In this document: positions 6,560 through 47,066 of the stretch, in pieces
How the letters are laid out: every line of letters begins with the position of its first letter
Numbering within the stretch: position 1 is the first letter of the stretch
IMG/VR virus record: IMGVR_UViG_3300040801_001435
Source of the DNA: a virus
Length of the DNA stretch: 64,000 bases
Strand: one strand, 5' to 3'
Position numbers and translations under genes: made by a program
Notes under the pieces: generated by a model
The model's input: the letters and a program-made list of their open reading frames with translations, nothing else
Told to the model about the DNA's origin: nothing
The model's database searches: none

Positions 6560-7153
6560 CTATGCTCTATAAGATGTTGTACCAATTGACATTTTTTCAT
6601 ATGCTTCTGTTATGCCTCTTCCAGTTGCAGCAAAACAAATTGAATCTTTAGCATCAATTCCCATTTTTGCTCCTGTTTTAAATGCATCTTGGTTTGCTGC
6701 AAGGAAAATAAATTCCCATCCATATGTATTTTTCTGATGGGTAATCATTTCTTTAATCTTTTCTAATGAGTATTCTTTACTTTCATTTTCCTCACCATCA
6801 GTAAGAATTGCAACGATAACCTTCTCAGGACGTTGCTCTTCAGATGTATTATGAAGACGTTCGCCAACAGTAACAATTGTTCGCCCAATTGCATCATGTA
6901 ATGCTGTTAAACCTCTAGGAACATATGTTGTATTTGTTAATTCTGAAACTTTCTTAATAGGAACATTGTTATGCATAACGATATATTCATGGTCAAACAA
7001 AATCAATGTAAATGTTGCTTCTCCTGGTACTTTTTTTTGATCATTTAAAAATGAATTAAATCCTCCAATAGAATCATTTTTAATAGAACACATCGATCCA
7101 GAACGGTCAATAATTGCCACAATTTCAGATAATCCTTTTTTCATGTTTATCAC
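6560..7153 (-). CDS. von Willebrand factor A domain protein
   Basis: MIDAS DRSGSM, T(ALHDA), ILTDGEEN. Confidence 0.92.
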   Translation of the reverse strand: MINMKKGLSEIVAIIDRSGSMCSIKNDSIGGFNSFLNDQKKVPGEATFTLILFDHEYIVMHNNVPIKKVSELTNTTYVPRGLTALHDAIGRTIVTVGERLHNTSEEQRPEKVIVAILTDGEENESKEYSLEKIKEMITHQKNTYGWEFIFLAANQDAFKTGAKMGIDAKDSICFAATGRGITEAYEKMSIGTTSYRA

Positions 7154-7257: not shown

Positions 7258-7671
7258 TCATTTATTATGTCTTACAATCATTGTTCTTCCATTACTATTT
7301 TTAATAAAAGAAAATTTTCCTATAATAATATCTCCCTTAAAATTAATAGTTATTTTATTAGCTTCCCATTCCAAAACATCACATTTACCACGATCAAATA
7401 TTGATACTTGGTCTGTTCTTTTTCTAATTTTGAGCGGCCCTTTGAAATCAATCCACATATCATAATCATGATCTGGAGTAGGGAACGCCTCAATTTTATT
7501 AATATCGTCGTCAAGTAAATTTAAAAGTTTTCTTGTTGCCCAACTTTTAAGAACCCCTCCTTTTTCAATACGAATATCATAATGTACATCATTTTGTGAT
7601 TTTTGATGACGCTGTATTACGAATTCAGTATCAGATTTATTATATTCGAATAAATAAAATAGATGTATCAT
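7258..7671 (-). CDS. standalone LigD-type 3'-phosphoesterase (PE) domain
   Basis: FVIQRH...VHYDIRIEKGGVLKSWA matches LigD PE FVVQxH..HYDFRLE..GVLKSWA; start moved to ATG 7671 behind GAAGGAG. Confidence 0.8.
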   Translation of the reverse strand: MIHLFYLFEYNKSDTEFVIQRHQKSQNDVHYDIRIEKGGVLKSWATRKLLNLLDDDINKIEAFPTPDHDYDMWIDFKGPLKIRKRTDQVSIFDRGKCDVLEWEANKITINFKGDIIIGKFSFIKNSNGRTMIVRHNK

Positions 7672-7726
7672 AAAATACTCCTTCATACACAAAAACAAGT
7701 GTGCATGGGATACACCTGTTTTATTA

Positions 7727-8161
7727 TCATTTGTTGAGAAACGTAATAACATTTCTTACAATATCCATCGTTAATCCGTGCTTCCAAAAATCTGTTTGAA
7801 AGAATCTCTCTTTTGGGATTTTTGGAAGCATTTTATCATCTAAGACACACCATTTTTCAATGGATGTCTCAGATAACCACTTATATATTTCCAATTCTCT
7901 TGGAGGATGATATCCTCCAAGATCCGGAGTTTGGCCGATTATAAGGTTTGGATTTACCAAACCTTTTTCGACAAACCTTCTTGTAATTTCTCGCAGTGAA
8001 AATGATCGTTTCCACATACTTGAAATTATAAATCGACAGTTTGTTTCAAGTGCGATTGTATTTAGTAGTCGCACTTTATTTCCTTGTAAATAGTTGTGCT
8101 CATTTTCAGGATATACATTAAATACCCCATCAATATCAAGCACAACAATCTTATTAGTCAT
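7727..8161 (-). CDS. HAD-superfamily phosphatase (RNA-repair-like)
   Basis: IVVLDIDGV motif I, IISSMW motif II, WCVLDD motif IV; start probably ATG 8161. Confidence 0.8.
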   Translation of the reverse strand: MTNKIVVLDIDGVFNVYPENEHNYLQGNKVRLLNTIALETNCRFIISSMWKRSFSLREITRRFVEKGLVNPNLIIGQTPDLGGYHPPRELEIYKWLSETSIEKWCVLDDKMLPKIPKERFFQTDFWKHGLTMDIVRNVITFLNK

Positions 8162-8302
8162 ATGAATGCTATCCCTGATTATTCCGGGATATACATTCCT
8201 TCTATTGATCATTACTTTGGAAGGAGAATAGGCCATGAATAAAATGTCCTTTACTCCCATGCTTATATATATTTCTATATATAAATCGAAAAACTAAAAA
8301 TT

Positions 8303-8935: not shown

Positions 8936-9286
8936 TTAATCCCAATCTACTATTCTATAATCTTTTGACCAATTTTGTTCATTAAGAATATTAACAATTA
9001 TATTGGATAATTTATTACAACGCTCAATATCAGTAAATATATCATATAGTTTTGAACTATCCGAAACATCAATTATTATAGTTTCACCAGGGTTGATCTT
9101 TTCAAACATATAAATATCATGCAATAAATCTAATGATTCAAGAAATTTAATAATGTCTTGAGCATCATTATTTGTATCTGTTGCGTTTATTGCTATTTCT
9201 AATATTGATATTTCTCTATCCAAATTATTTGTAATAATAAAGCTGCTACTAGAACTATTAGCTACAAAATTTGTTCGTATTTTCAT
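8936..9286 (-). CDS. NSSS-motif family protein, copy 9
   Basis: MKIRTNFVANSSSSSFII. Confidence 0.85.
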   Translation of the reverse strand: MKIRTNFVANSSSSSFIITNNLDREISILEIAINATDTNNDAQDIIKFLESLDLLHDIYMFEKINPGETIIIDVSDSSKLYDIFTDIERCNKLSNIIVNILNEQNWSKDYRIVDWD

Positions 9287-9645
9287 CCATCACTCCATTC
9301 TCCAAATAAGAATATTTTAGAATCATGAGTAACATAATATCTAAGAATTTCATCCATATGGGTCATATCATCAATATTATCTTGTGTTTCTATTGATCTT
9401 GCTGAAATGTGTGTATTTTTTGCCTCTTTAATGACTTTCACCATAAACAATTTAAATTCGTCATCAAATACTTCGTCGGATAAATCATACCCTTCTGTAT
9501 CTAAAAAATACTTTTCTGCTGTTTCAGTAAATTTATCATAATCTTCATTAATATAATCATACAATGTTTTATCTTCAAATGTCGTATTCGCTATTATAAA
9601 TACGCTTGTGCTACTATTAGCAACAAGCGATGTTCTAATTATCAT
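9283..9645 (-). CDS. NSSS-motif family protein, copy 8
   Basis: MIIRTSLVANSSTSVFII; ATG 9645 in ATGA overlap. Confidence 0.8.
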   Translation of the reverse strand: MIIRTSLVANSSTSVFIIANTTFEDKTLYDYINEDYDKFTETAEKYFLDTEGYDLSDEVFDDEFKLFMVKVIKEAKNTHISARSIETQDNIDDMTHMDEILRYYVTHDSKIFLFGEWSDG

Positions 9646-10004
9646 GCAGAACAAATTCCAGTTACAAAACTACCAGTTGTTATTTTTTCATGGTAGTGAT
9701 ATAAAATATCGGCAATATATACATCGATATATTGATTTGATTGCCAATCTACTTCATCAACAATAAAACCTTTACTTTCAATACAATCATCTATATATGA
9801 ATTTGCTATCATTTGATCATACCATTGTTCAAATGATCCATCGTATTTATGGGAATTATTATCATAGTGTTTCATTGCAGCATCTTTAAATGACTGTTCA
9901 TTTTCTTTGATAAGATCCATGACAGTTAAATCTTTATCAGAATTATTGAAAATAACAAAACTACTGCTTGAGCTGTTTGCAACAAATGATTTTCTAACAA
10001 TCAC
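9642..10004 (-). CDS. NSSS-motif family protein, copy 7
   Basis: GTG start, (M)IVRKSFVANSSSSSFVI, GAGGTG RBS. Confidence 0.8.
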   Translation of the reverse strand: MIVRKSFVANSSSSSFVIFNNSDKDLTVMDLIKENEQSFKDAAMKHYDNNSHKYDGSFEQWYDQMIANSYIDDCIESKGFIVDEVDWQSNQYIDVYIADILYHYHEKITTGSFVTGICSA

Positions 10005-10353
10005 AGTCCACCTCACTTACTATAAAATTTTCAGTCGATTTTGATTTATTACCGAACATATTCATAAGTATTTTTGTTACATCTTCAGGATCTTCTGCAT
10101 CATTACTATCAGTTGCCCACCAAAACATATTAATGCTACGAGGATTAAAAATTGTATTTTTAGCATCTGATACCAATGTTTTAAATTCAACAGGAAGATC
10201 ATTATGATCAAGATATGTTTCTGATTTTTGCTTGAATTCATACAAGCACACTTCTTCAATAAATTCCCATAGTGTTTTACTATTTTTTGATGTGTTTACT
10301 ATTGTAAAACTGCATGAGCTACTATTTGCAACAAATCCAATTTTAATAATCAT
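9994..10353 (-). CDS. NSSS-motif family protein, copy 6
   Basis: MIIKIGFVANSSSCSFTI. Confidence 0.85.
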   Translation of the reverse strand: MIIKIGFVANSSSCSFTIVNTSKNSKTLWEFIEEVCLYEFKQKSETYLDHNDLPVEFKTLVSDAKNTIFNPRSINMFWWATDSNDAEDPEDVTKILMNMFGNKSKSTENFIVSEVDCDC

Positions 10354-10690
10354 TTCCTATACTAAACTCCCTATATTTTGGATCGAATGTGTCATTATAA
10401 TCTGAACTTTCAGTTTCTCTAATATTTCCATTATTAATTATGATATCATGTAATGTATTGTGATAACTAACTGAAAGTATAATAGATTCGTTTGGTTGCA
10501 TTTCTTCTTTTAAATCACTGTAAACATCCATTAATAGTTCATTTAATATTTCACATGTTTCACAAAATTTGTTTTTATCAAATATCGTATCAATTATAAT
10601 ATCATATAGTAGTTTTGTTTCATTACTATTATTTGTAATGACAAAACTGCTACTAGAACTATTTGCAACAAAAGATTGTCTTATTTTCAT
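10343..10690 (-). CDS. NSSS-motif family protein, copy 5
   Basis: MKIRQSFVANSSSSSFVI, GGAG RBS. Confidence 0.85.
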   Translation of the reverse strand: MKIRQSFVANSSSSSFVITNNSNETKLLYDIIIDTIFDKNKFCETCEILNELLMDVYSDLKEEMQPNESIILSVSYHNTLHDIIINNGNIRETESSDYNDTFDPKYREFSIGNDY

Positions 10691-10731
10691 ACTTCTCCTA
10701 TATACATATGTATGGCCTCTCCATCATACCA

Positions 10732-11034
10732 TTACCAATTACTAGTATCGGTTGACTGTTCTAATATTTCTAAAAATAGATCAGCAAAATCTGAAGCGTT
10801 GTATATTTCAATGAAATTAAATTCTTCACCAAAAGAATTATCTTTAAATCCTTCAAAGCTACCATCATCTAAATCATATTCAAGAGTTCGTTTTACTTTT
10901 TTCTGAATGTCTGTTGGAAAATACTCAAGATTATCCTTGAGAAATTCTTCTATTGTTTTTACATTTCCAGTTTTATTTATAACCACAAAACTACAGGAGC
11001 TACTATTTGATACAAAACTATTTCTTATTTTCAT
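10732..11034 (-). CDS. NSSS-motif family protein, copy 4
   Basis: MKIRNSFVSNSSSCSFVV; ATG 11034 in ATGA overlap. Confidence 0.85.
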   Translation of the reverse strand: MKIRNSFVSNSSSCSFVVINKTGNVKTIEEFLKDNLEYFPTDIQKKVKRTLEYDLDDGSFEGFKDNSFGEEFNFIEIYNASDFADLFLEILEQSTDTSNW

Positions 11035-11360
11035 GATTGATATGTCCATTGAAAGCGTTTAGTACCACCATGTTCTTTTAATCTTGATCTGAAAATTATT
11101 CCTATCGGATCTCCAGAATCATCTTCAAAAGTAACAGATGTTTTTCCAGGTTTTAAATTAGGATAATTTTTTGCAGAGTCCATTATATATTCTAACGGAA
11201 AGTTATACCATTCATCATCTTTCCAATCTTCGATAAATTCTTCAATAATTCCCATATGATCTTTAACAAATTCCTCAAACGGTATTGTTTCTTTTGTCTT
11301 ATTTAGAATAATGTATGAACTTGAACTACTATTTGCCACAAACTCTGATCGTATTTTCAT
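11031..11360 (-). CDS. NSSS-motif family protein, copy 3
   Basis: MKIRSEFVANSSSSSYII; ATG 11360. Confidence 0.85.
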   Translation of the reverse strand: MKIRSEFVANSSSSSYIILNKTKETIPFEEFVKDHMGIIEEFIEDWKDDEWYNFPLEYIMDSAKNYPNLKPGKTSVTFEDDSGDPIGIIFRSRLKEHGGTKRFQWTYQS

Positions 11361-11365
11361 ATTAG

Positions 11366-11827
11366 TTATCCTATTCTGGTTGCTCCAAATGTTTTCACAA
11401 CACCACATAGTCCACTTACATTCTCATCAGACATTTCTTTATAAATTTGCTGTTCTTCGTTTGTAAAATAATCAAGATCTATATCGTAGTCCATTTCAAG
11501 GGTATCATCATTCCAAAACTCTGAGTCACCTTCATGATTAGCAACATCCATTGTAAATACATCTGAATATTGAGGATCATAATCAATATATAATTCAGTT
11601 CCTTCTGCTTCAAATTCTACTCGATTAGTGTTTCCATCAATATATACTTCCAACCAATAATCATCTTTTTTTGGATATTTCAATTCTCTAACATTGTAAT
11701 TATAATGATTTGTAATTTTATGCTTCCTAAGCCATGAGTTAAATACATCTCTGTTTTTAATATAACCAATTCCACACATAAAGCTACTGGAACTACTATT
11801 TGCCACAAAACTTGACCGTATTTTCAT
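11366..11827 (-). CDS. NSSS-motif family protein, copy 2
   Basis: MKIRSSFVANSSSSSFMC; ATGA overlap with the phosphatase stop. Confidence 0.85.
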   Translation of the reverse strand: MKIRSSFVANSSSSSFMCGIGYIKNRDVFNSWLRKHKITNHYNYNVRELKYPKKDDYWLEVYIDGNTNRVEFEAEGTELYIDYDPQYSDVFTMDVANHEGDSEFWNDDTLEMDYDIDLDYFTNEEQQIYKEMSDENVSGLCGVVKTFGATRIG

Positions 11828-12321
11828 TTGTAGTTTATCCGACGAAGTTCATTTATATCTTTGTCTGAAATGTCTTTTCCAAAAGCTTTCATACATAATT
11901 TATATATATGAAAATTTGGGGCATATTGATATATCCCAAATAAACGTACAGGATTATCACCAAGGTACATTTCTCTTATAGCAAATGCTACAGCGGGAGA
12001 TCTTGATACTCCAGCTTTACAATGAACGATAAAAAAGTCAACATTGTTTTTGTACGTTTCTACAAAATTACGAATTTGTATAGCATGATTCAAATCCATT
12101 AAAATATCATTTTGCAGAGTTCCACCACCACAATTAAGAGATTCTATATCGGAAACTTCCAAAGATAAAACCCCTTTGAGACTATCATTAGGAAAAAATT
12201 TTGCTGGACCGTCACCTTCAAAAGTATCATACATACTTATAATTGCATATACGGAATCGGATTTTTTATATGCAAACTTTTCTGCTTGTGCTCTAGACAT
12301 AATTTTGACAGAGGTAAACAT
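11824..12321 (-). CDS. protein tyrosine/dual-specificity phosphatase-like (CX5R)
   Basis: VHCKAGVSRSPAVA P-loop. Confidence 0.85.
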   Translation of the reverse strand: MFTSVKIMSRAQAEKFAYKKSDSVYAIISMYDTFEGDGPAKFFPNDSLKGVLSLEVSDIESLNCGGGTLQNDILMDLNHAIQIRNFVETYKNNVDFFIVHCKAGVSRSPAVAFAIREMYLGDNPVRLFGIYQYAPNFHIYKLCMKAFGKDISDKDINELRRINYK

Positions 12322-12432
12322 TTCAATTCCTTTACTATTGATCGTATGACAAATTTATTATGAATTACATGGATATTGTAATAATCATAATATCCGTCAA
12401 TTAATTCAGAAAATCCATAACCTATTTCGTCA

Positions 12433-12723
12433 CTAGTCATATGTAAAATCAACTTTTGACATATCAATCCCAACACGTTCCATAAACTCTTCCATATCAA
12501 AGTTATCCATAAAAGTATTACCAGTCAATGTATTAGCTTTGCGATCTATTGATATTCTCCACCAATCATATTCATCAGTAAAGAAATCTTCTCTGGGAAA
12601 TTTCATTTTTGCATAATCAATATGATTTTCAATCATATAAATTTGCTTAGCAGTAATATCATCTAAACTAATAACAAAACTACTACTTGAACTATTTGCT
12701 ACGAAACAAGTTCTACATTTCAT
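12433..12723 (-). CDS. NSSS-motif family protein, copy 1
   Basis: MKCRTCFVANSSSSSFVI; ATGA overlap. Confidence 0.85.
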   Translation of the reverse strand: MKCRTCFVANSSSSSFVISLDDITAKQIYMIENHIDYAKMKFPREDFFTDEYDWWRISIDRKANTLTGNTFMDNFDMEEFMERVGIDMSKVDFTYD

Positions 12724-12974
12724 ATGTTTTTCCCTTCAGTTGTTAGAAAGTGTTTAAAAAGTTTATAGTCTATTTTGATAAGAGTTTCTAAATAGATTTT
12801 TTGAAAATCTGATAAACTATCAATTAAACAATTATAGTTGCTACTATAATTCTGAACGGGTTTCAATTGACACATACATTCATTACAACATGTGTTATAT
12901 TGAAAGTGGACAGGAAAATCTTCCTGTTGTCCACTGTACTTACCTGTTATATTTCCACAAACAATACATTTCAT
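12720..12974 (-). CDS. small Cys-rich (Zn-binding) protein
   Basis: CIVC and CCNEC; ATGA overlaps at both ends. Confidence 0.6.
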   Translation of the reverse strand: MKCIVCGNITGKYSGQQEDFPVHFQYNTCCNECMCQLKPVQNYSSNYNCLIDSLSDFQKIYLETLIKIDYKLFKHFLTTEGKNI

Positions 12975-13450
12975 ATTTTTACCAAAGTTCTCTTCGTGTC
13001 CATTACATCATTTTCCCACATTGCCATATCTGATACTCGATCATATACACGATCAAATATATCAATTCTTTTTTCGTCGATTCCTCCACGAAATTTCTCA
13101 CCACGTTTTAATTTCATAGCTACATCAACTTTATATCCTTTTTCCAAGAATTTTCTGATGTTTTTGATTTTGACATCAAAATCATGTTCTTGCATAACTG
13201 ATGAAATTTGTACTTCCTTAGTTTTTATCTTCTGTTGTTTTTGGTTCTTTTTCTGGTCGAAGTTTTTCTTATCAATGTCCATGATTTTACAAATTGGAAT
13301 ATCAGCATCTTTGACAAGAACTAATGGAATTCCAATTTGTTTTGCTTCATTGAAAGCATATTGAAATGTAACATACCCTCTGTTGGTATTTGTATTGTCA
13401 ATCAACAATACTTTTCTTCCAGCATTAAATGAATTCTTTTGTAGTTTCAA
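12971..13450 (-). CDS. infC: translation initiation factor IF-3
   Basis: VLLID...LVLVKDADIPICKIMD...KEVQIS...EHDFDVKIKNIRKFLEKGYKVDVAMKLKRGE; TTG start behind GGAGATG. Confidence 0.9.
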   Translation of the reverse strand: MKLQKNSFNAGRKVLLIDNTNTNRGYVTFQYAFNEAKQIGIPLVLVKDADIPICKIMDIDKKNFDQKKNQKQQKIKTKEVQISSVMQEHDFDVKIKNIRKFLEKGYKVDVAMKLKRGEKFRGGIDEKRIDIFDRVYDRVSDMAMWENDVMDTKRTLVKI

Positions 13451-13986: not shown

Positions 13987-15132
13987 TTACACATCGTAAA
14001 CTGGACAATTTCGTTTATTTTTAATTAATGTATTTCTCCATTCAATAACTCTGGGATTAAACCACACGTCTTTCAAAAAGTCGCCGCAATCAACCACAGA
14101 AATACCTTTCTCCCATCCAGGAGTTCCTTCAATAAATGAACAAGGGAAAAATTCACCATCAACATTAATATATGAAGAAAACAATCCGGATTCACATGGT
14201 TCACATGTCAACTCATAGATTTTTTTATTAGGCATATCTTCAACACTCTTCATGAATTTATTAGCACAACAGCTATCAAATCCAAGAGGAACATTTTCTT
14301 GTAAGCAGTATTTAACAAGTTTTTTAAACTCATCAAATTTAACCTTATTAAATCCAACACCTCTTCCTTTCTGTTTCAATCCAAGAAGAACAATTGCATT
14401 TAGATTATCTTTAAGACCACTATAGTTAGATAGATAATCTTCAACAGTTTCATATACATGATCCAAAGTTTCATCTGAAATCATGATATGAATATTTACT
14501 TGATTAAGACCTGATTTTTTAAGATTTGAAATACCATCATAACATAAGTCTTTATCATCATATCTACTTACACTTACTGCTCCACACACACTTGCTAATT
14601 TTTCAGCAAGTTCTGTATCACAATCAGACACAGTAGTATTTGGAACATATCCTTTTTCACGGCAATATTTGAAAATATCATACCATTCAGGATTGCTACT
14701 ACAATCACTATCCACTCCAAATGCTACTTGTGTAAGAGCAAAAGGATACTTATCTATCACTTTTTTAAAGACATCAAGTGACATATTAGAACCCCGATTG
14801 GGTGTATTATTTTTGTAACAAAATGTACAAAGTTTTCCCCCAGGCCCTTTGCATTTAGTGGTGATTTCAATATCAGCAATTTCAGGGCCAAAAGGACTAA
14901 ACATAGGATCGTGAGCATACGATCTACCAAATCGTATAAATGCTCCTGTTTCTTTGTTAAAGTCATAATTGTATTCTCTTGATGTGATGCTTTTGTGTAT
15001 TTCATTATTAATCGGCGCATAAAAATTACGGTTTTTCATAAATCGCCGAATATGTTTTCTGATATATTTCCTATCAGCACCAGTATATTTACAAATTCTG
15101 TCAGTCATAATCTTTCTAATAGAAGTCTTCAT
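13987..15132 (-). CDS. radical SAM enzyme with C-terminal SPASM/twitch-like region
   Basis: DIEITTKCKGPGGKLCTFCY (CX7CX2C); C-terminal CEPCESGLFSSYINVDGEFFPCSF...RNCPVY. Confidence 0.85.
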   Translation of the reverse strand: MKTSIRKIMTDRICKYTGADRKYIRKHIRRFMKNRNFYAPINNEIHKSITSREYNYDFNKETGAFIRFGRSYAHDPMFSPFGPEIADIEITTKCKGPGGKLCTFCYKNNTPNRGSNMSLDVFKKVIDKYPFALTQVAFGVDSDCSSNPEWYDIFKYCREKGYVPNTTVSDCDTELAEKLASVCGAVSVSRYDDKDLCYDGISNLKKSGLNQVNIHIMISDETLDHVYETVEDYLSNYSGLKDNLNAIVLLGLKQKGRGVGFNKVKFDEFKKLVKYCLQENVPLGFDSCCANKFMKSVEDMPNKKIYELTCEPCESGLFSSYINVDGEFFPCSFIEGTPGWEKGISVVDCGDFLKDVWFNPRVIEWRNTLIKNKRNCPVYDV

Positions 15133-15147: not shown

Positions 15148-15921
15148 CTAATATGATGTTATGGTATATGTTTCTTTAAATTTATATATGATATCAACAA
15201 AAGTATTTGGAATATATTTCAAAGTTTCTTTAACAATCCATTCCGGGATATCATCATAATATGCTTCAGCTATTGCTCCTGCAATAGAAGCCTGTGTATC
15301 AGCATCTCCCCCAAGAGATATCGCTAATCTAATTGCATCTTCAAAACTTTCTGATTCAAGAAAACAGATAATTGCCTCTGGAACAGATGTAGCTGCTCTT
15401 GAAGAAAAATTATAGGATGGCCGAATACTATCAACTGTTCTATCGAAGTTGTATGGTGAAATCGTTTTACAAACATCTCTAATTTCAGATTTTTTATATC
15501 CTTCAATAGACATATAAATACAATATGCTACTAAATTGGCACAACAAATAGCATCAATATTATTATGGCTGCACTTGGCTGATTTTCTAGCTTCGATAAT
15601 AATATCTGTGTCTTCAAATGACCATCCAATTGGAGAAATTCTCATTGATGCACCATTTCCCCAACTATCACTTTCAAATGGATTTTTTATCCATTCTTTG
15701 AACATTTTGCCATATCCTGCATCAGGATATTTTTTTCCATACTTGACATACTTTTCTTGATAATCATACGTGTTATCAAGAATTGCCTCAGCAGTAGCTA
15801 TTGTTAATACAGAATCATCTGTAAATTTACAGTCTGAATGAAATAAATCAAAGTCTTTTGACTTGATTGTACTTCGTTCAAAACGACTACCAATAACATC
15901 ACCGATTATTGCACCGATCAT
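15148..15921 (-). CDS. ADP-ribosylglycohydrolase (DraG/ARH family)
   Basis: GAIIGDVIGS, FTDDS, GNGASMRISP, GGDADT. Confidence 0.93.
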   Translation of the reverse strand: MIGAIIGDVIGSRFERSTIKSKDFDLFHSDCKFTDDSVLTIATAEAILDNTYDYQEKYVKYGKKYPDAGYGKMFKEWIKNPFESDSWGNGASMRISPIGWSFEDTDIIIEARKSAKCSHNNIDAICCANLVAYCIYMSIEGYKKSEIRDVCKTISPYNFDRTVDSIRPSYNFSSRAATSVPEAIICFLESESFEDAIRLAISLGGDADTQASIAGAIAEAYYDDIPEWIVKETLKYIPNTFVDIIYKFKETYTITSY

Positions 15922-15931: not shown

Positions 15932-16216
15932 TCATTTTGTTGGTTTAAACAGTGGGTCTTTTTTACTTATCCATGATATCCATTTATTAACATCTTCATT
16001 TTCAAGTAAAAGGTCTATTGTATAATAATTTTCAGCAAGTTCTTTATTATCAAATATTTTATGCATTTGATAATGACAAGCAGAACACAATGCTGCTGTT
16101 GTATTCAATTGTTCTTTTGTAAACTTTCGAGTAAACCTTTTATTATGTTTTTGTTTAGGAATTAAATGATGTCCTTCTATTTTACAATTATCTCTTTTAC
16201 AAAGCGAACATTGCAA
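15932..16216 (-). CDS. HNH-like endonuclease
   Basis: CSLC...EGHHLIPK...LCSACHYQMH; TTG start at 16216 behind AAGGAG. Confidence 0.7.
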   Translation of the reverse strand: MQCSLCKRDNCKIEGHHLIPKQKHNKRFTRKFTKEQLNTTAALCSACHYQMHKIFDNKELAENYYTIDLLLENEDVNKWISWISKKDPLFKPTK

Positions 16217-16602
16217 ATAAATATTCTCCTTTCGAAATAAAAATATCGGGATAACATACAGCATTAATAGGCCCAGTTCGTTATACTTAACAAACGTAAA
16301 GTTGACTTGTTAAGGGGGTTTAACCCTCGAACTGTGTACTTTCCGTGTTATGTATCCCGATATGTTAAGAATTTCTGTTGTAATGGTTAGATTATACAAA
16401 TTTTTTGCGTATCTCGAAATACCTGACTATTAGCTAAACTATATTGAAAATAATAAATATAATATACTCTAAATATAAGTTTAAACTAATAATAATTTAC
16501 AAGCTAAATAGCCACTTTACAAAGATAGTCACAGTGCATATGTATCCAATATTATTAGAAATTCTAAAATTTTAGTTTCTCTATATTATAAGGGTGGCGC
16601 AA

Positions 16603-23412: not shown

Positions 23413-24660
23413 CTATGTTTTGAATTGTATAAATGTTGTTCTATTAATAAGTTGAGCAAAATGTTCTTTATCGGCTTTTCTCATAAATATATTAGATATT
23501 GCAATTGGTGTATAATCATATTTTCCAGACTTTTCAATATCATATTTATTTCCAAAAGATGGATAATCAGGTAAACTATTTGTTGTTTCTGTTATTATAA
23601 ATCGTTTAATATGTTCTTTTGCTATTTCCTTATTTGTGTCATATCTTTTTTGTGCATCATCTGGTGAATCTGGAACATAAATTCGACTATATGTCGTTGA
23701 TTGATTAATTGAATTTGATGATATTCCACCGTCCTTTGATACTCCTATTTTTCTACCATCTGTTAGTTGAACATCTTTAACACTACTTTTCTTTTTTGGA
23801 ATTTTTGATTGTGGTACTACTTTATGTGCGTATCGCATATTACTAGTAACAAATACAGGAACATGTCCATCTTTATTATATTTTTTAGAAATATCTGTGA
23901 ATGGAATTTCTTTAACTATTTTTGTCAATCTATCCATATCTGGAAATAAATTAATTTTTTGACTTTTTTGATCTTTTAATTTTAATATATTAATATAATA
24001 ACCTACAATTTCATTTTTTGTTTTCCCATCAAACGAAAAGTTATCAAAATAATAAAATGTGAAATTATTTGTTGGTTTATATATATCTATTAAATAGCTT
24101 GGAATATTTGCGTCATTTGACATTTTAAGTAACATTTGTTCATACTGAAAATTGTTCTTATTTTCAGTAGCACCAAAGTGTTTAAAATCAAATACATCAC
24201 CATAATTTTCAGTAAGCCATCCTTCATAATTTTTGAGAGCCTGATATGCCGTTATGTTATTTTCAATTGTATTATATGTATTTGTTGTTCCCATATAATA
24301 TAAAATAGGATGTACTAATACTAATGTTACATGTATATGGTTCTCATTAAAATTAAGAGGCCCTTGTGGTTCAACGTTAATACATAATAATGTTTGATTA
24401 AATATTGTTTTCCATTCTTTATCATGAAATTGACTTATTTCATCAACTATTCTAATATTTAGTTTTATTTCTGGAAAATCATTTAAAGAAACACGTTCCA
24501 TAAATGATTTTACAGTAATTTGTGGTAAAAAAATTTTAAGTATGGCTATACCAGCCATACTATAAACAGGGGATCTTAAAAAACAGCAAAAATTACAATC
24601 TACTACTTTTTGCTCTTCTATTTTTGCTGTTATTTCATAGTGAAATTGTGCTGAATTCAT
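23413..24660 (-). CDS. hypothetical protein, possibly tail/baseplate hub-like
   Basis: 415 aa, beta-rich N-terminus; no diagnostic motif, so the function is a guess. Confidence 0.3.
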   Translation of the reverse strand: MNSAQFHYEITAKIEEQKVVDCNFCCFLRSPVYSMAGIAILKIFLPQITVKSFMERVSLNDFPEIKLNIRIVDEISQFHDKEWKTIFNQTLLCINVEPQGPLNFNENHIHVTLVLVHPILYYMGTTNTYNTIENNITAYQALKNYEGWLTENYGDVFDFKHFGATENKNNFQYEQMLLKMSNDANIPSYLIDIYKPTNNFTFYYFDNFSFDGKTKNEIVGYYINILKLKDQKSQKINLFPDMDRLTKIVKEIPFTDISKKYNKDGHVPVFVTSNMRYAHKVVPQSKIPKKKSSVKDVQLTDGRKIGVSKDGGISSNSINQSTTYSRIYVPDSPDDAQKRYDTNKEIAKEHIKRFIITETTNSLPDYPSFGNKYDIEKSGKYDYTPIAISNIFMRKADKEHFAQLINRTTFIQFKT

Positions 24661-26528
24661 AATTGATTCATAATTTCCTCAAATTGTTCATATGTTATAA
24701 TTTTTGTTCCATTTTTCTCTGCTTTCATCATTTTGTTTGATTTCTTATTTGGATTATCTGTCACAAGTAACTGTGTTTTTTTTGTAATTGACTTATCTGC
24801 AACATGTCCTTTATTTTCAATATAATTGAAATACCAATCTCTTCCACGATCATAAGGATCTTTCCCAGTAAAACATATATTAATTGATTCTTTGTTAGTA
24901 TCTATTTTTTGCACATTGTCGTCAATTTTAATTATTTTAAGCAACGCATCAATATATGTTTTATTATCATGGAGATAATCAAAAATATCTCTTGCTCGTT
25001 CTATTCCTATATTTGGTATTTCCATTAGCCGTTCTTCAGAAATCCGCCGCAATAAATCAAAACTAACAGATTTAAGAATATCTTTACTAAGAGATCTACC
25101 AACACCATCAATATTGAAACTTGCTAACACTCTCCAATTAGGAACAGGATTATTTTTAACTTTATCAACTTCTAAAATGAAGTTTTTAGAAGAAACATCG
25201 CCAAACTTATCAAGTTTAATTATATCACTGTATGTCAAATTGAATACATCAACTAAATTAGAACACCCCAAGTCAGTAATTAATTTACTAACTGTGCTTG
25301 GGCCAATATTTTCAATTCCTATCTTTTTGATACTGTCTGTTAATCGTTTTTGTAATGTACTTCCACATACATCATTTAAACATCTTAAATTTGGACCATC
25401 CCATGTTAATATGGATTCACATGAGGGACAATGTGTTGGTGGAACTATTTTCTTACTATTCTTTCCTCTTGATATTAAACTGTGATACTGTGGGATTATT
25501 TCACCAGCTTTTTGTAAAATAATTTTATCACCAATTCTAATATCATTATCCATAACAAATTTCCAGTTATGTAAATTGACACGTTTATTAATATTTCCTG
25601 CTATTTCTACAGGTTCAACAATACCAACAGGAGTTATTGCAGATTTTCCTATACTTAATTCAATATCTATTATAGTTGTTTCACCAGTTGGATTTTTAGG
25701 TTTAAGTGCTAATTCTCCTCTTGGATGATGTGACGTATTTCCTAAAGACTCCTTATATTCTTTATCTTTAAGTTTTATTACAATACCATCCATAGGAAAT
25801 CCAAGCGATTTAAATTGATTTTTAGCATATTCTATTGCATCTGACATATTTACTAAATTGGTTTCTATACTGTATGTATTGAAATCTACAAAATGTATAT
25901 ATCCTAAAAACTTAGAATCAACAGTGTCTTTACCTAAAATTCCACCAACTGCACTTCTTGATGTTTTATATTTATCTCCATTTCCTCTAACAAACAATGA
26001 TCTATTGTTTTCAAAAACATCATCTCTAATTAGAATTTCGCCACGAACATCTTTTTGGACATCTGGTAAATGTATTACTATTGGTGTACCTTCGTTATCT
26101 TTTGTAATACACACGATGATACTAATTTTATCACTAAGATCAATTCCAACATCTTCTTTTGCTCTTGCTCTTGTATATAATAGTAATTTTTCATGCTCAA
26201 AATTTGCACTTATACCATCATATTTCGGTTCAATTATAAAAAGTTCACTTTCTGATCTTGCATATTTTTTTGCCCATAATAAAACATTATTAATATCATA
26301 TGCTTTATCAAGAGATATCATTGTTACTGATTTCTTTATTTTCTTCTTTTTGTCACTATTTGGAATTTCTTCTAAATAATTAATAATAAGTTCATTATTT
26401 GGATCAAGTTTTTTAAGTGCTTCTATAAGATTATCATAATCAATGTCAGATATTTCAGGAGTACCATTAATAAATTGTTGATTATGATATTCTATTGTTT
26501 CTTCAAGTAATTTAATTTCTTTTTTCAT
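24657..26528 (-). CDS. ligA: NAD-dependent DNA ligase
   Basis: ISDIDYD, EPKYDG, RGE, DGIVIK, TSHHPRGELALK, Zn finger CPSC...C, HhH repeats, C-terminal BRCT. Confidence 0.95.
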   Translation of the reverse strand: MKKEIKLLEETIEYHNQQFINGTPEISDIDYDNLIEALKKLDPNNELIINYLEEIPNSDKKKKIKKSVTMISLDKAYDINNVLLWAKKYARSESELFIIEPKYDGISANFEHEKLLLYTRARAKEDVGIDLSDKISIIVCITKDNEGTPIVIHLPDVQKDVRGEILIRDDVFENNRSLFVRGNGDKYKTSRSAVGGILGKDTVDSKFLGYIHFVDFNTYSIETNLVNMSDAIEYAKNQFKSLGFPMDGIVIKLKDKEYKESLGNTSHHPRGELALKPKNPTGETTIIDIELSIGKSAITPVGIVEPVEIAGNINKRVNLHNWKFVMDNDIRIGDKIILQKAGEIIPQYHSLISRGKNSKKIVPPTHCPSCESILTWDGPNLRCLNDVCGSTLQKRLTDSIKKIGIENIGPSTVSKLITDLGCSNLVDVFNLTYSDIIKLDKFGDVSSKNFILEVDKVKNNPVPNWRVLASFNIDGVGRSLSKDILKSVSFDLLRRISEERLMEIPNIGIERARDIFDYLHDNKTYIDALLKIIKIDDNVQKIDTNKESINICFTGKDPYDRGRDWYFNYIENKGHVADKSITKKTQLLVTDNPNKKSNKMMKAEKNGTKIITYEQFEEIMNQL

Positions 26529-43726: not shown

Positions 43727-44919
43727 TATATAAATCTCCCAAACCTATCAACTTCCGTATATGGAATAAGTGATACAGTTCTTCCTGGTTTTTGACTACT
43801 TACTGTAATTGGACAAATTCTTCCAAAATGTGTTTCATGAATTGTTTGTATTTCTTTTGGAGGATGTTCTACACCAGGAGATACCATATTAACTTTATGT
43901 TGAGGAATACTACTGAAGAAATTTACTGGTTCATATATATAATTTCCTGATAATCCTCCCATTTTCTTTCCAGCGGTATTAGTTTGTTGTTTTTTACCAG
44001 AAGCTCTAAAATATTTAATTATAGACATATTATCTATTTTTATTTCATCATATAAAATCCCTCGCCAAACTTGTTTAGCGAAATTTGCGATTTTATCAAA
44101 AAATGGCCGCAATAACAACTCAATAAAAATTAATCTTTTATTAGCCAAGTCAACAAAGTTAAACGTGTCTTTATGAATATATTTATTAAGTGCCCATACT
44201 AACAAATATTCCAAATCAGAAGAAGAATAACAAGTATTATACAATTCATCTGTATAATAGTCAAAAATTACATCAGATATAAATTGTCTTGCTTTATCTA
44301 TATCATCAATGTTATTATTTCCAAAAGCATTTCTAAAATAAGTTACAATTTCCTCATCCGGATGAGTATCATGTTGTTTTTTGTGATTTTTAAGAAACGC
44401 ATTATATAATTCTAAACTTTCAACCTTTTCAAAAAATAATTGAAAGAAATATGATAGTGGTATATTTATTCCAGTTAAAATTGCAATATCATCTTTAAAA
44501 TAAATAGTTAAACCATTCAACAATCCATAGAATTGTATACTTTTTTCTTTGATAATAATAGGATAATCAACAACATACATTGCTGGAACATATATTGTTC
44601 CATTTAGATTGAATGTGCATCCATCTAACAATGTTGGTATTAGAATGTTTAAAAATGTTTTTTCATATTTTTCTTCATCTGTTGTATATGCGTCAGTTTT
44701 TATTATTAGTTCGCTAAAACAACTATTAAATAACCCGATATAATTTATCCGTTCTTTGAAATCTATATTTTTAACATTAATATATCTATTACCAAATTTC
44801 AATAAATATTCCATAGCAACAGAAGCAAAATATGGTATTATGCTATATTGATATTCTCTGAAATTAGTAACAGATAATATATCAGTATTTGGTTGTTTTC
44901 TTTTTTGTAGTGTATTCAT
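43726..44919 (-). CDS. phage RNA polymerase beta subunit, N-terminal part
   Basis: Ends with IHETHFGRICPI...GR (beta VHPTHYGRVCPI region); coupled to the beta-C gene. Confidence 0.75.
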   Translation of the reverse strand: MNTLQKRKQPNTDILSVTNFREYQYSIIPYFASVAMEYLLKFGNRYINVKNIDFKERINYIGLFNSCFSELIIKTDAYTTDEEKYEKTFLNILIPTLLDGCTFNLNGTIYVPAMYVVDYPIIIKEKSIQFYGLLNGLTIYFKDDIAILTGINIPLSYFFQLFFEKVESLELYNAFLKNHKKQHDTHPDEEIVTYFRNAFGNNNIDDIDKARQFISDVIFDYYTDELYNTCYSSSDLEYLLVWALNKYIHKDTFNFVDLANKRLIFIELLLRPFFDKIANFAKQVWRGILYDEIKIDNMSIIKYFRASGKKQQTNTAGKKMGGLSGNYIYEPVNFFSSIPQHKVNMVSPGVEHPPKEIQTIHETHFGRICPITVSSQKPGRTVSLIPYTEVDRFGRFI

Positions 44920-46880
44920 TACAATTGTAATGCCTTTAATAGTGTTGTCACTACTTTCTTTGTTCCAACTTCCATCGTAATATCTGTTGGCATTTCATAA
45001 TATCCTTTTTCTATAAGTTGTTCTAATAAATTTTCTTTTCCAGCAGTATAGTCAGATTTAACAGTATATAATTCATGAAGTGCTTTAGGACATCCAGAAC
45101 TTAATATAGCTTCGGCTTCCATTTGTCCTACTCTAACGCCACCTTTTAGTGCTCTACCCTTCACTGGTTGTTTTGTAATAGATTTATATGGACCAACATT
45201 TCTAGATGCTATTATTTTTTCTGATATTTTATTTAATTTAACAGTATAAATTGGTGCACACATTATCCCATCAACAGTCTTATCTATTGCTGGAAATGGT
45301 AGCTCAATACGCAAACATTGACGCATATATTGTAAAAACTTTCTGCTTTGAAATACTGGTTCATTCAATTGCACTGAGTTGTTTTTAATCTTTTCAATAT
45401 TGATGTGTTTAAATGGTGGTGCTTCAACAAACAAATTGGAAGCAAATATGCTATCTATAACAGTTTTTCTAATAGACGTATCATTATCCATATTATTAAT
45501 CAATCTTTCAACATCACTACTATATTCAATATCGTTGAAATTATCAATGATATTTAGTTTAATCCATTTAAGTGTATCTGTAATTTTATCAGGATTTGTA
45601 CGAATATAGTTATCACAAATCATCATATTTTTTGATATTAATGCTTCAGGCATGACACTTATATTCATTCGACTTGGAACACCAAATGAATTAAACATTA
45701 CATCAATTGGTTTATTTGTTATTGTTGATATTGGTCTTAATTCATCTGGTAGAATATGTCCAACAACACCTTTTCCTGCATATCTATTGCATATTTTATC
45801 ACCAACTTTTGTATTTTCTTCTTTATAAATATCACACTCGATAATATATACAGCATTCAATATATCGTTTCTATTGGTTGTTATATTATCTTGTCTATTT
45901 GAAAATACAAAGTATTTTGCCATTATAAATTTGCAATATTCGTCACTGAAAGTATTGTTCAAGTCGAAAAATGCATTCATTGCATATTTCTTAAAATACA
46001 AAATATGCATGTTCTCTAAAACATTTTGTAAGTTATCATCAATAAGTCTAACATCATCTTTCAACTTATGAATTCTATATCCTTGAATAATACCACTGTT
46101 TATTTTTGTTTCAATTGGTTCTGTAGAGAAATTTGATGACCCATGATCAAATCCTATCATATCAGATAGATTCATTGATTTAAGCATTATTGTCATTTTT
46201 TGCTTTATATCGCTCATTGAATGATAATCTGATATTTTTGGTTCTATTTTCATTGCAAATATATTATTTGTTATTTGCTGACCAATAGCAGGAAAATATT
46301 TGAAAGATTCTACATCATTTTTATATATTGGTTGAAATATTGAATGTTCAAATACCGGAATAATAACTCTATCTATATACCGGTGTTTTGCTTTATTTGC
46401 AAAACTTTCAGATATAACAATTCCATCTTCATGATTATATCCAAAAAATGGCATCATTGCTGTATAAGCATTATATCCAAATGATGGTACTCCTGTTCTG
46501 AAACAATCATATTCGTATATAATGTCACCTTTCATAAAAGGTGTATTTGATGGTAAACAAAATCGTAAACTTGAACTGAAAATACCTATAGATTTTTTAA
46601 TAAGAGGTATTTCTTTAATTTCTATTTTATTCAATCCTGTATAGTGTATAACAATAATGTCATTATTTTTATAAATAACATTCCCATCATCTTTTGCTAT
46701 ACATATTCCAAGTGGACTATTATTTGTTATATCTCGATAATCTGTTGATGTCACATATGGTATTTCACAATTAGTGTGTGTTAGTGCTTGTGTTATTTGT
46801 TTTGCTGCCATCTGCATTCTTGTGCTATCACAAGAACCATCAAACGGCTGGCCTGCTAGATTTGAGCTTACTATCGACAT
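44919..46880 (-). CDS. phage RNA polymerase beta subunit, C-terminal part
   Basis: RMQMAAKQITQA, GYNHEDGIVIS, GDKICNRYAGKGVV, GVPSRMN, KGGVRVGQME. Confidence 0.93.
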   Translation of the reverse strand: MSIVSSNLAGQPFDGSCDSTRMQMAAKQITQALTHTNCEIPYVTSTDYRDITNNSPLGICIAKDDGNVIYKNNDIIVIHYTGLNKIEIKEIPLIKKSIGIFSSSLRFCLPSNTPFMKGDIIYEYDCFRTGVPSFGYNAYTAMMPFFGYNHEDGIVISESFANKAKHRYIDRVIIPVFEHSIFQPIYKNDVESFKYFPAIGQQITNNIFAMKIEPKISDYHSMSDIKQKMTIMLKSMNLSDMIGFDHGSSNFSTEPIETKINSGIIQGYRIHKLKDDVRLIDDNLQNVLENMHILYFKKYAMNAFFDLNNTFSDEYCKFIMAKYFVFSNRQDNITTNRNDILNAVYIIECDIYKEENTKVGDKICNRYAGKGVVGHILPDELRPISTITNKPIDVMFNSFGVPSRMNISVMPEALISKNMMICDNYIRTNPDKITDTLKWIKLNIIDNFNDIEYSSDVERLINNMDNDTSIRKTVIDSIFASNLFVEAPPFKHINIEKIKNNSVQLNEPVFQSRKFLQYMRQCLRIELPFPAIDKTVDGIMCAPIYTVKLNKISEKIIASRNVGPYKSITKQPVKGRALKGGVRVGQMEAEAILSSGCPKALHELYTVKSDYTAGKENLLEQLIEKGYYEMPTDITMEVGTKKVVTTLLKALQL

Positions 46881-47034
46881 ATTTATCCAACTCGTTTAAG
46901 ATATCTGTTACATATTGTTCAATAATAATTGGTTTAATCTTTTCACCTCTAACGATTCTAGTTAATAATCTAGTTATATGATTCTTTATCTCATCTCTTG
47001 GTTTTAACATTTTAAATTATCCTCGTTAAAAAAA

Positions 47035-47054: not shown

Positions 47055-47066
47055 TATCATTATTAT

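What the first reader, a model, noticed from the sequence alone, without database searches (positions are those of the whole stretch)
8936..12723. Array of nine coupled acidic genes sharing an N-terminal MKIRxxFVANSSSSSF motif
Seen: nine 96-153 aa ORFs (starts 12723, 11827, 11360, 11034, 10690, 10353, 10004, 9645, 9286) open with (M)(K/I)(I/C)(R/K)xx(F/L)V(A/S)NSS(S/T)(S/C)(S/V)(F/Y). The seven contiguous copies extend this to hhxNx(S/T)xxxx(T/S/L/P)hx(E/D). The bodies are otherwise unalignable by eye and very D/E-rich. Most are linked by ATGA or short overlaps. The Ser runs mix AGY and TCN codons, arguing for selection on the peptide rather than a DNA microsatellite. Inference: a constant leader on variable cargo. 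Options are (a) leader/substrate for a modifying enzyme (RiPP-like), (b) a sorting signal such as capsid packaging or injection, (c) a structural strand that assembles hetero-oligomers, or (d) a 5' homology cassette for shuffling acidic anti-defence or DNA-mimic proteins. This is the best candidate for an undescribed system in the window.
Basis: partly seen in the sequence, partly recalled or inferred. Interest (0 to 1): 0.92.

Follow-up and report, generated by a model that had tools for sequence, protein, structure and literature searches.

The report
Tagged phage proteins with radical-SAM partner
Nine neighbouring small acidic phage genes all begin with the same 16-residue serine-rich tag, and across phages and bacterial islands such tagged proteins nearly always sit beside one dedicated radical-SAM enzyme, so this is probably an undescribed protein-modification system.

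Summary
Nine minus-strand genes (8936-12723) start with M-K-I-R-x-x-F-V-A-N-S-S-S-S-S-F. They are acidic (pI 4.3-5.0) and mostly translationally coupled.

- **Family size:** a profile search finds 6303 protein clusters with this tag, and no library names the family.
- **Tag position:** the tag sits at the extreme N-terminus in 297 of 298 genes. N10, S11 and S12 are invariant.
- **Bodies:** they fall into many sequence-unrelated groups, including 777- and 1254-residue LRR proteins.
- **Structure:** in two AlphaFold models residues 1-10 are unplaced and residues 13-20 form the first strand.
- **Neighbour:** the only widely conserved neighbour is a co-oriented twitch/SPASM-like radical-SAM enzyme with a CX7CX2C motif (window 13987-15132). 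It is present in 37 of 61 viral loci and 27 of 35 genome loci.
- **Co-variation:** the tag variant (GFVSN or DFVTN) is uniform within a genome and follows the two deep enzyme clades.

Best reading (about 0.55): the tag marks client proteins for this enzyme. The chemistry is unknown, and no modification or binding was shown.

E. coli phage RB16 and Klebsiella phage Matisse carry the pair, so it can be tested.

This scan had already noted the same system on other DNA. I found no paper on it.

The parts
8936..9286 (-). Tagged protein 1 (116 aa, pI 4.33). Its body clusters with copy 10343-10690.
   Evidence: matches the family profile at E 9.5e-17
9283..9645 (-). Tagged protein 2 (120 aa, pI 4.30). 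Its tag is the variant MIIRTSLVANSSTSVF. The body is weakly A-type.
   Evidence: E 3.9e-19
9642..10004 (-). Tagged protein 3 (120 aa, GTG start, pI 4.52). The body is weakly A-type.
   Evidence: E 4.8e-19
9994..10353 (-). Tagged protein 4 (119 aa, NSSSCSF variant, pI 4.51). The body is weakly A-type.
   Evidence: E 5.9e-20
10343..10690 (-). Tagged protein 5 (115 aa, pI 4.35).
   Evidence: phrog_7397 at E 2e-4, N-terminus only; E 1.3e-20
10732..11034 (-). Tagged protein 6 (100 aa, FVSN and NSSSCSF, pI 4.32).
   Evidence: E 3.7e-18
11031..11360 (-). Tagged protein 7 (109 aa, pI 5.01). This is the canonical A-type body and was modelled by AlphaFold2 (pLDDT 89.6).
   Evidence: body alone E 5e-26
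11366..11827 (-). Tagged protein 8 (153 aa, pI 4.46). Its body is unrelated to the others in the window.
   Evidence: only the tag matches the family (E 1.6e-5)
11824..12321 (-). CX5R dual-specificity-phosphatase-like gene embedded in the array. Its stop overlaps the start of copy 8. It is not a conserved partner elsewhere.
   Evidence: Pfam DSPc E 4.2e-6; a homolog occurs in only one other locus, L045; junction -4
12433..12723 (-). Tagged protein 9 (96 aa, pI 4.55). It has the B-type body (conserved Q27, W55, T70, D73, N74) and was modelled by AlphaFold2 (pLDDT 81.7).
13987..15132 (-). Radical-SAM enzyme (381 aa) on the same strand, upstream of the array. It has an invariant CX7CX2C triad (C94, C102, C105) and four invariant C-terminal Cys (C288, C313, C331, C376), which suggests one auxiliary cluster. 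It is the predicted partner of the tag.
   Evidence: Pfam Radical_SAM E 3.7e-6; phrog_7293 E 6e-106; alignment A4; PDB profile hits SkfB 1.5e-5 and BtrN 2.5e-4; adjacency

Best explanation
The nine genes encode client proteins of the co-encoded twitch/SPASM-like radical-SAM enzyme at 13987-15132.

The shared 16-residue N-terminal tag is M-K-[IVF]-R-x-[DG or x]-F-V-[TSA]-N-S-S-S-[STCA]-S-[FY]. I read it as the enzyme's recognition and reaction site. Residues 1-10 would be a free, flexible peptide that enters the enzyme. The invariant N-S-S-S lies at the junction with the first beta-strand of each body.

One enzyme would thus mature many unrelated, mostly acidic effector-like proteins. This is the logic of 'one maturase, many leader-bearing precursors', applied to whole folded proteins.

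The chemistry is not known. The nearest solved relatives are a thioether-forming enzyme (SkfB) and an alcohol dehydrogenase-type enzyme (BtrN). Oxidation of a Ser side chain, a cross-link or an epimerisation are therefore the candidates.

**Shown:** the tag, its position, its invariance, the variable bodies, the conserved enzyme neighbour, and the tag-variant/enzyme-clade match.

**Inferred:** that enzyme and tag touch, that the tag is chemically modified, and that the proteins act in phage-host conflict.
For: 1. The enzyme is the only widely conserved neighbour. Loci were collected by the tag alone. A homolog lies co-oriented within 8 kb in 37 of 61 viral loci and in 27 of 35 prokaryotic-genome loci, often starting 9-25 nt after a single tag gene. 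Only 172 of 50,697 cultured phage records have this enzyme at all.
2. Two of four contigs without a nearby enzyme carry it elsewhere, and all four are incomplete.
3. Matisse and RB16 carry the enzyme plus two tagged proteins about 20 kb away.
4. The tag begins at a start codon in 297 of 298 genes. N10, S11 and S12 are 100% conserved in 442 non-redundant proteins.
5. The bodies are unrelated by BLAST and hhalign, have two different predicted topologies, and include LRR giants.
6. In both AlphaFold models residues 1-10 have pLDDT of about 45-50 while the rest is confident.
7. All paralogs in one genome share one tag variant. The enzyme tree splits with 100/100 support into a GFVSN clade (which includes the window) and a DFVTN clade.
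8. The enzyme belongs to the twitch/SPASM group, most of whose known members modify peptides or proteins (SPASM Pfam hit in homolog L030).
Against: - No modification, binding or processing has been observed.
- The complex prediction gave no verdict: 0.35 against a control at 0.56.
- No RRE-like domain was detected in the enzyme.
- No peptidase or exporter is conserved nearby, so this is not a classical RiPP.
- In cultured T4-like phages the enzyme and the tagged genes are about 20 kb apart.
- 24 of 61 viral loci show no enzyme within 8 kb.
- The tag/enzyme-clade match rests on essentially one deep split, so it could reflect shared ancestry.
- Position 14 tolerates S, T, C and A, so that residue at least is not an obligatory reaction site.
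Confidence: 0.55

Rival explanations
1. Adaptor model. The tag is a docking strand, not a substrate. Tagged proteins would be interchangeable targeting or regulatory subunits that bind the radical-SAM enzyme through the N-terminal peptide. Their variable bodies (acidic domains, LRRs, Zn-ribbons) would recruit different host or phage targets that the enzyme then modifies.
For: The linkage and co-variation evidence is the same as for the best explanation. LRR bodies are typical protein-binding modules. One enzyme is paired with many diverse bodies. The free N-terminal peptide in the models could dock by strand addition.
Against: A docking strand would be expected to conserve a hydrophobic pattern rather than an invariant N-S-S-S. 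The complex prediction gave no specific interface. I know of no precedent among twitch/SPASM enzymes for exchangeable targeting subunits (my own knowledge).
Confidence: 0.17
2. The tag acts independently of the enzyme. It could be a sorting or assembly signal (packaging into the capsid for injection, like T4 internal proteins), or a strand that drives oligomerisation. The radical-SAM gene would then be only a frequent neighbour in accessory regions.
For: The tag is always at the extreme N-terminus. It heads variable, acidic cargo in tandem arrays in early-gene-like regions. In T4-like phages the tagged genes lie near baseplate genes and far from the enzyme.
Against: The enzyme-tag pair also occurs as a two-gene cassette on contigs assigned to bacterial genomes (27 of 35 such loci). 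In the four I annotated it lies beside R-M, WYL, STAND-NTPase or integrase genes and, in one, next to an ordinary metabolic gene, with no virion gene seen nearby. Tagged genes also occur on three contigs binned with archaeal or Nanoarchaeia MAGs, though without the enzyme within the flank. No conserved (L/I)-x-E cleavage site follows the tag; that stretch is a confident helix. The tag variant tracks the enzyme clade.
Confidence: 0.13
3. One ordinary, very divergent domain superfamily. The tag would simply be its best-conserved first strand and loop, for instance a ligand- or phosphate-binding serine nest. The enzyme would make a small molecule that these proteins bind or carry.
For: Residues 13-20 are the first strand of an alpha+beta sandwich in both models. 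The B type is ferredoxin-like (Z 5-6.7) and the A type is weakly RRM-like. Small residues are tolerated at position 14. The LRR hits start only near residue 178, which leaves room for a small N-terminal domain.
Against: The body groups show no profile-profile similarity, and the two models have different connectivity. The ten most conserved N-terminal residues are not part of the modelled fold.
Confidence: 0.1

Closest known systems
RiPP radical-SAM twitch/SPASM maturases with adjacent leader-bearing precursors (SkfB/SkfA, SuiB/SuiA, CteB, PqqE/PqqA). The 'one enzyme, many precursors' logic is also that of the prochlorosins (ProcM/ProcA), which I cite from my own knowledge.
   Same: A radical-SAM core plus a C-terminal auxiliary-cluster domain. 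The best solved-structure match is SkfB (E 1.5e-5). Co-oriented adjacent genes, often several paralogs, share a conserved N-terminal sequence and vary downstream.
   Different: - The clients are folded proteins of 96-1254 aa, not short peptides.
- The conserved piece is only 16 residues and runs into the first strand of the fold.
- No peptidase, exporter or detectable RRE is present.
- The cluster motif is CX7CX2C.
- The system is mainly phage-encoded.
Anaerobic sulfatase-maturating enzymes (AtsB, anSMEcpe) acting on sulfatases
   Same: A radical-SAM enzyme of the SPASM group that modifies a Ser or Cys in a short motif near the N-terminus of a whole protein. Ser/Cys interchange is seen at tag position 14.
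   Different: The substrate motif (C/S)-x-P-x-R is absent from the tag. Position 14 also accepts Ala and Thr. Only four invariant auxiliary Cys are present, which suggests one extra cluster rather than two. There is no significant sequence match to anSME.
Capsid-targeting sequence of phage T4 internal proteins (IPI-III), cited from my own knowledge
   Same: A short conserved N-terminal sequence on otherwise variable small phage proteins encoded in tandem, polymorphic loci.
   Different: No conserved protease site follows the tag. The pair also occurs in bacterial islands, and tagged genes occur on archaeal MAG contigs. It is linked to a radical-SAM enzyme rather than to head genes.
PHROG families phrog_7397 (tagged proteins) and phrog_7293 (the enzyme), both annotated 'unknown function'
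   Same: The enzyme matches phrog_7293 at E 6e-106. Five of the nine copies match the first 20-66 positions of phrog_7397 at E 2e-4 to 8e-3.
   Different: Neither family has a described function, and the link between the two is not recorded in the library.

Membership tests
Radical-SAM superfamily (the enzyme at 13987-15132) | A Cys triad that binds the SAM-cleaving 4Fe-4S cluster (canonical CX3CX2C) | tested here: met
   Three Cys (C94, C102, C105) are invariant in 28 homologs, but spaced CX7CX2C. Pfam Radical_SAM scores E 3.7e-6 at 27.6 bits, just under the 29.5 cutoff.
Twitch/SPASM subgroup of radical-SAM enzymes | A C-terminal Cys-rich domain that binds one (twitch) or two (SPASM) auxiliary 4Fe-4S clusters | tested here: met
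   Four invariant C-terminal Cys are present (C288, C313, C331, C376). Profile matches to BtrN and PqqE cover exactly this region. Homolog L030 hits Pfam SPASM at E 1.5e-5. The count favours one cluster (twitch-like).
RiPP maturase-precursor system | Precursor genes adjacent to and co-oriented with the maturase, sharing a conserved recognition sequence | tested here: met
   37 of 61 viral loci and 27 of 35 genome loci. Tag logo.
RiPP maturase-precursor system | A short precursor peptide whose leader is removed by a dedicated peptidase or exporter to release a modified core | tested here: not met
   The clients are 96-1254 aa with confidently folded bodies. No peptidase or transporter is among the recurrent neighbours.
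RiPP maturase-precursor system | A RiPP recognition element (PqqD-like) in or beside the maturase | tested here: inconclusive
   There is no Pfam or NCBIfam hit to PqqD/RRE in the enzyme. The conserved N-terminal 55-85 region was not modelled.
RiPP maturase-precursor system | A demonstrated post-translational modification of the precursor | not testable with these tools
   This needs mass spectrometry. The complex prediction gave no verdict.
anSME-sulfatase pair | The substrate motif (C/S)-x-(P/A)-x-R | tested here: not met
   The tag logo has no Pro or Arg after the Ser run.
T4-type capsid-targeting sequence | An N-terminal targeting peptide ending in an (L/I)-x-E prohead-protease site, and restriction to virion-forming elements | tested here: not met
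   There is no fixed cleavage motif; residues 28-34 are a helix with pLDDT above 90. On the four bacterial-genome contigs I annotated, the cassettes lie beside R-M, WYL, NACHT or integrase genes and no virion gene was seen nearby. Packaging itself was not tested.
phrog_7397 | A significant full-length match to the family profile | tested here: inconclusive
   The best match is E 2e-4 over positions 1-66 of 170. The other copies match only positions 1-20.

The most novel reading that the evidence does not exclude
A new class of virus-encoded post-translational chemistry. A dedicated radical-SAM enzyme recognises a universal 16-residue N-terminal tag and installs a radical-derived modification (for example a Ser-derived aldehyde or cross-link) on dozens of unrelated folded effector proteins. 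Phages would use it to arm anti-host proteins, and bacterial defence islands would use a sister form. The tag would then be a portable, genetically encodable handle for enzymatic protein modification.
Probability: 0.35. Interest if true: 0.9.

Novelty: new variant of a known kind. Interest (0 to 1): 0.8.

Why it matters
The tagged family is very large: 6303 clusters at 50% identity. It spans jumbo phages, classical T4-like coliphages and Klebsiella phages, contigs assigned to gut Firmicutes genomes, and archaeal MAG contigs.

Neither the family nor its enzyme has a name, a Pfam family or a paper that I could find.

If the enzyme modifies the tag, three things would follow:
- It would be the first radical-SAM maturation system known to act on whole, unrelated proteins through a common N-terminal tag.
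- It would assign a shared biochemical step to thousands of 'hypothetical' phage proteins that look like host-takeover or counter-defence effectors.
- It could give a compact tag-and-enzyme pair for protein engineering.

RB16/RB43 and Slopekvirus phages make it directly testable in laboratory E. coli and Klebsiella.

Tried and rejected
**Searches that found nothing**
- The word-index homology search with copy 10343-10690 found only itself.
- tblastn of a family member against cultured phages found nothing, probably because the low-complexity filter masks the Ser run.
- blastn of the region against phages found no match.
- Pfam and NCBIfam gave nothing for any of the nine copies.
- PADLOC has no family for the tag protein. 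Only a weak viperin-like hit (E 2.6e-4) came up, for one enzyme homolog.

**Structure searches**
- The A-type model found no significant relative in PDB Foldseek, BFVD, AFDB clusters or VIA-wide. The best results were Z 3.9 and E 0.058, and AFDB returned one uncharacterised homolog.
- The B-type model gave only generic ferredoxin-like matches at Z 5-6.7.

**Complex prediction**
- Enzyme plus copy 11031-11360 gave no verdict: 0.35 against a control at 0.56. This is neither support nor evidence against binding.

**Ideas rejected**
- DNA-level repeat or gene conversion of the tag: rejected because synonymous codons, including both Ser codon boxes, differ between copies.
- The CX5R phosphatase as a conserved partner: rejected, since it recurs in 1 of 61 loci.
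- Homology to the radical-SAM enzyme of thymidine hypermodification (M6 gp53): not supported. That enzyme is SPL-like with CX3CX2C (PMC8989533).

**Literature**
- Searches for the motif, for phage radical SAM with SPASM or RiPP, and for Slopekvirus radical SAM found no description.
- The jumbo-phage survey PMC7824862 does not mention radical SAM.

**Own genome**
- No whole genome is held for the window.


Full report
**Observation**

The window is AT-rich (about 28% G+C) and almost all of its genes are on the minus strand. Nine minus-strand ORFs between 8936 and 12723 begin with M-(K/I)-(I/C/V)-(R/K)-x-x-(F/L)-V-(A/S)-N-S-S-(S/T)-(S/C)-(S/V)-(F/Y). A six-frame regular-expression scan finds these nine and only one unrelated hit elsewhere in 64 kb.

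The products are 96-153 aa long and acidic, with pI 4.30-5.01. The genes are tightly packed, with junctions of -4, -4, -11, -11, +41, -4 and +5 nt. A CX5R phosphatase-like gene (11824-12321) overlaps the start of the 153-aa copy by 4 nt.

The tag is conserved as peptide, not as DNA. Invariant Ser12 is encoded by TCT, TCA, AGC and AGT in different copies, and Val8 by three codons.

**A very large, unnamed family**

Pfam and NCBIfam give nothing for the nine proteins. PHROGs gives only weak matches, mostly to the first 20-36 positions of phrog_7397 (unknown function), with a best E of 2e-4.

A profile of the nine proteins was searched exhaustively against 1.84 billion cluster representatives. 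It finds 6303 proteins at E <= 1e-3, mostly 100-135 aa, and nearly all start with MKIRxGFVSNSSSSSF.

I collected 442 non-redundant tagged proteins. Their residue frequencies by position are:

| Position | Residues (%) |
|---|---|
| 1 | M 98 |
| 2 | K 97 |
| 4 | R 87 / K 13 |
| 6 | D 50 / G 42 |
| 7 | F 98 |
| 8 | V 97 |
| 9 | T 54 / S 42 / A 4 |
| 10 | N 100 |
| 11 | S 100 |
| 12 | S 100 |
| 13 | S 96 |
| 14 | S 69 / T 21 / C 5 / A 4 |
| 15 | S 89 |
| 16 | F 86 / Y 14 |

The first tag residue is a start codon in 297 of 298 genes. The tag is therefore always at the extreme N-terminus.

**Constant tag, variable body**

With the first 20 residues removed, 474 bodies fall into 83 BLAST clusters, 48 of them singletons. 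Profile-profile comparisons among 13 body groups are mostly below 5% probability; only two pairs are related.

Some bodies are Zn-ribbon-like. In one Eubacteriales contig the tag heads BspA-type LRR proteins of 777 and 1254 residues directly downstream of the enzyme.

Within the window:
- Copy 11031-11360 has the commonest ('A') body, at E 5e-26 without the tag.
- Copies 9642, 9994, 10732 and 9283 resemble the A body weakly.
- Copy 12433 has a second conserved ('B') body.
- Copy 11366 has another body again.

**Structure**

The AlphaFold2 model of the A type has mean pLDDT 89.6 and pTM 0.80. Its secondary structure is strand 13-20, three helices, strand 72-79, a helix, and then two strands. 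Residues 1-10 average pLDDT 50 and are coil.

The B type has pLDDT 81.7, strands at 14-19, 56-60, 65-70 and 91-95, and a different connectivity. Residues 1-10 are again below pLDDT 50.

The second half of the tag (S13 to I18) is thus the first strand of each body, and M1 to N10 is an unplaced N-terminal peptide.

Neither model has a convincing relative. For the A type the best results are Z 3.9 and Foldseek E 0.058. For the B type there are only generic ferredoxin-like matches at Z 5-6.7.

**The conserved partner**

I collected loci by the tag pattern alone: 61 from IMG/VR and 35 from prokaryotic genomes and MAGs. Most viral loci hold tandem arrays. 54 of 61 have two or more tagged genes within 8 kb, with up to 8 in viral loci and 10 in one MAG contig.

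The only widely shared neighbour is a homolog of the radical-SAM gene at 13987-15132. It is co-oriented and usually abutting, in 37 of 61 viral loci and 27 of 35 genome loci. Two of four viral contigs without a nearby copy carry one elsewhere, and all four contigs are incomplete. For comparison, only 172 of 50,697 cultured phage records contain this enzyme.

The enzyme matches phrog_7293 (unknown function) at E 6e-106. It has an invariant but non-canonical CX7CX2C triad and four invariant C-terminal cysteines. Its closest solved relatives by profile are SkfB (1.5e-5), BtrN (2.5e-4) and PqqE (0.036), which places it in the twitch/SPASM group. One homolog hits Pfam SPASM.

**Co-variation**

Every tagged paralog in a given locus carries the same tag variant, whatever its body. 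The variants are G6/S9 (GFVSN) and D6/T9 (DFVTN). The window has its own A9 form in 8 of 9 copies.

The enzyme tree splits with 100/100 support into a clade of 14 and a clade of 50. The first holds 12 GFVSN loci, the window and one x/S locus. The second holds 48 DFVTN loci. This fits co-evolution of tag and enzyme. It amounts to about one deep event, however, so shared ancestry is not excluded.

**Context**

The window is from a large phage. It encodes multisubunit RNA polymerase beta and beta' homologs, an NAD-dependent ligase and an IF3 homolog. Around the array lie an ADP-ribosylglycohydrolase, a LigD-type 3'-phosphoesterase and a HAD domain of the RNA-repair 'Swiss army knife' type. In other viral loci the recurrent neighbours are RlaP nucleotidyltransferase, a KTI12-like kinase and RNA ligase. 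Many of those loci come from one related group of contigs.

I annotated the flanks of four contigs assigned to bacterial genomes (MAGs). There the cassette of one tag gene plus the enzyme sits in these settings:
- beside a type I R-M system and an ordinary metabolic gene (L088);
- beside a WYL regulator (L079);
- beside a SMEK-NACHT STAND NTPase and an integrase (L100);
- beside a GHKL-ATPase/UvrD pair (L095).

In eight of these loci an XRE-type HTH gene follows the enzyme. These are mobile or defence-island settings. Neither protein is in PADLOC.

**Cultured examples**

Homologs of the enzyme (46-50% identity) occur in 172 T4-like phage records: Slopekvirus KP15 and Matisse, Pseudotevenvirus RB16, and Cronobacter, Citrobacter and Enterobacter phages. 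Matisse and RB16 each encode two tagged proteins. In Matisse they are 156 and 171 aa, both start MKIRSGFVSNSSSSSFI, and they flank a 738-aa vWA protein about 20 kb from the enzyme. All are annotated as hypothetical.

**Expression**

The window derives from a microbial-mat metagenome. Contigs from two RNA libraries of the same sample match several array genes at 100% identity. The depth is low, and DNA carry-over cannot be excluded.

**Interpretation**

The best-supported reading (about 0.55) is that the tag marks proteins as clients of the radical-SAM enzyme and contains the reaction site. The rivals are:
- an adaptor model, in which the tag docks and the bodies recruit targets (0.17);
- an enzyme-independent sorting or assembly signal (0.13);
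- one divergent domain superfamily that binds a product of the enzyme (0.10).

No tool here can show the chemistry. The complex prediction was non-specific.

**Comparison with known systems and novelty**

In logic this resembles RiPP radical-SAM maturase-precursor systems, and anSME acting on sulfatases. It fails defining features of both:
- there is no short cleaved precursor, peptidase or exporter;
- the (C/S)xPxR motif is absent.

It also does not fit the T4 capsid-targeting sequence.

I found no publication that describes the tag or the pairing.

Earlier agents of this scan reported the same enzyme-plus-tag system on other DNA. I reached the reading before consulting them, and they are not independent evidence. 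This window adds the largest phage array seen here (nine copies), a distinct A9 tag variant, and an enzyme separated from the array by IF3 and small ORFs.

Noticed in passing
window 12971-13450 (-): A phage-encoded translation initiation factor IF3 homolog (IF3_N E 1.7e-12, IF3_C E 3e-11). It lies in the same tightly coupled gene run, between the radical-SAM gene and the array.
   Followed up: no
window 7258-8260 (-) and 15148-15921 (-): A LigD-type 3'-phosphoesterase, a HAD domain of the 'Swiss army knife' RNA-repair type, and an ADP-ribosylglycohydrolase flank the array. In other viral loci RlaP, a KTI12-like kinase and RNA ligase recur near the arrays. The neighbourhood therefore has an RNA-repair or counter-defence theme.
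   Followed up: partly
window 12720-12974 (-): An 84-aa Cys-rich (Zn-ribbon-like) ORF without the tag overlaps the start of tagged copy 9 by 4 nt. One body group of tagged proteins elsewhere is also Zn-ribbon-like (CxxCG...C.NGH.FC).
   Followed up: no
L030:1458-3317 (IMG/VR contig): In this locus the radical-SAM ORF is 619 aa and carries GIY-YIG and NUMOD3 homing-endonuclease domains at its N-terminus, ahead of the SPASM region. This could be a homing endonuclease fused to or inserted in the enzyme gene.
   Followed up: no
NC_028750.1 (Matisse) 67302-71672; HM134276.1 (RB16) about 67.0-71.0 kb: In T4-like phages two tagged genes lie about 4 kb apart. In Matisse, where I read the annotation, they flank a 738-aa vWA (MIDAS-motif) protein. 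The window also has a VWA-like ORF (6560-7153, phrog_7371) about 2 kb downstream of the array, with a homolog in L027. This may be a third component.
   Followed up: partly
L100:2736-5615; L079:951-1943; L088:644-4507; L095:8703-12118: On contigs assigned to bacterial genomes, single tag-gene plus enzyme cassettes lie next to a SMEK-NACHT STAND NTPase with an integrase, a WYL regulator, a type I R-M system, and a GHKL-ATPase/UvrD pair. These are defence-island-like settings.
   Followed up: partly
window 44919-50729 (-) and 24657-26528 (-): Multisubunit RNA polymerase beta and beta'-like genes and an NAD-dependent DNA ligase mark the element as a large phage with its own transcription apparatus.
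   Followed up: no
window 15932-16264 (-): An HNH nuclease-like protein (NCBIfam HlpB, E 1.1e-17) lies just upstream of the ADP-ribosylglycohydrolase.
   Followed up: no
window 9180-11671: Contigs from two metatranscriptome libraries of the source microbial-mat sample match parts of six array genes at 100% identity. This is compatible with transcription but does not prove it.
   Followed up: partly
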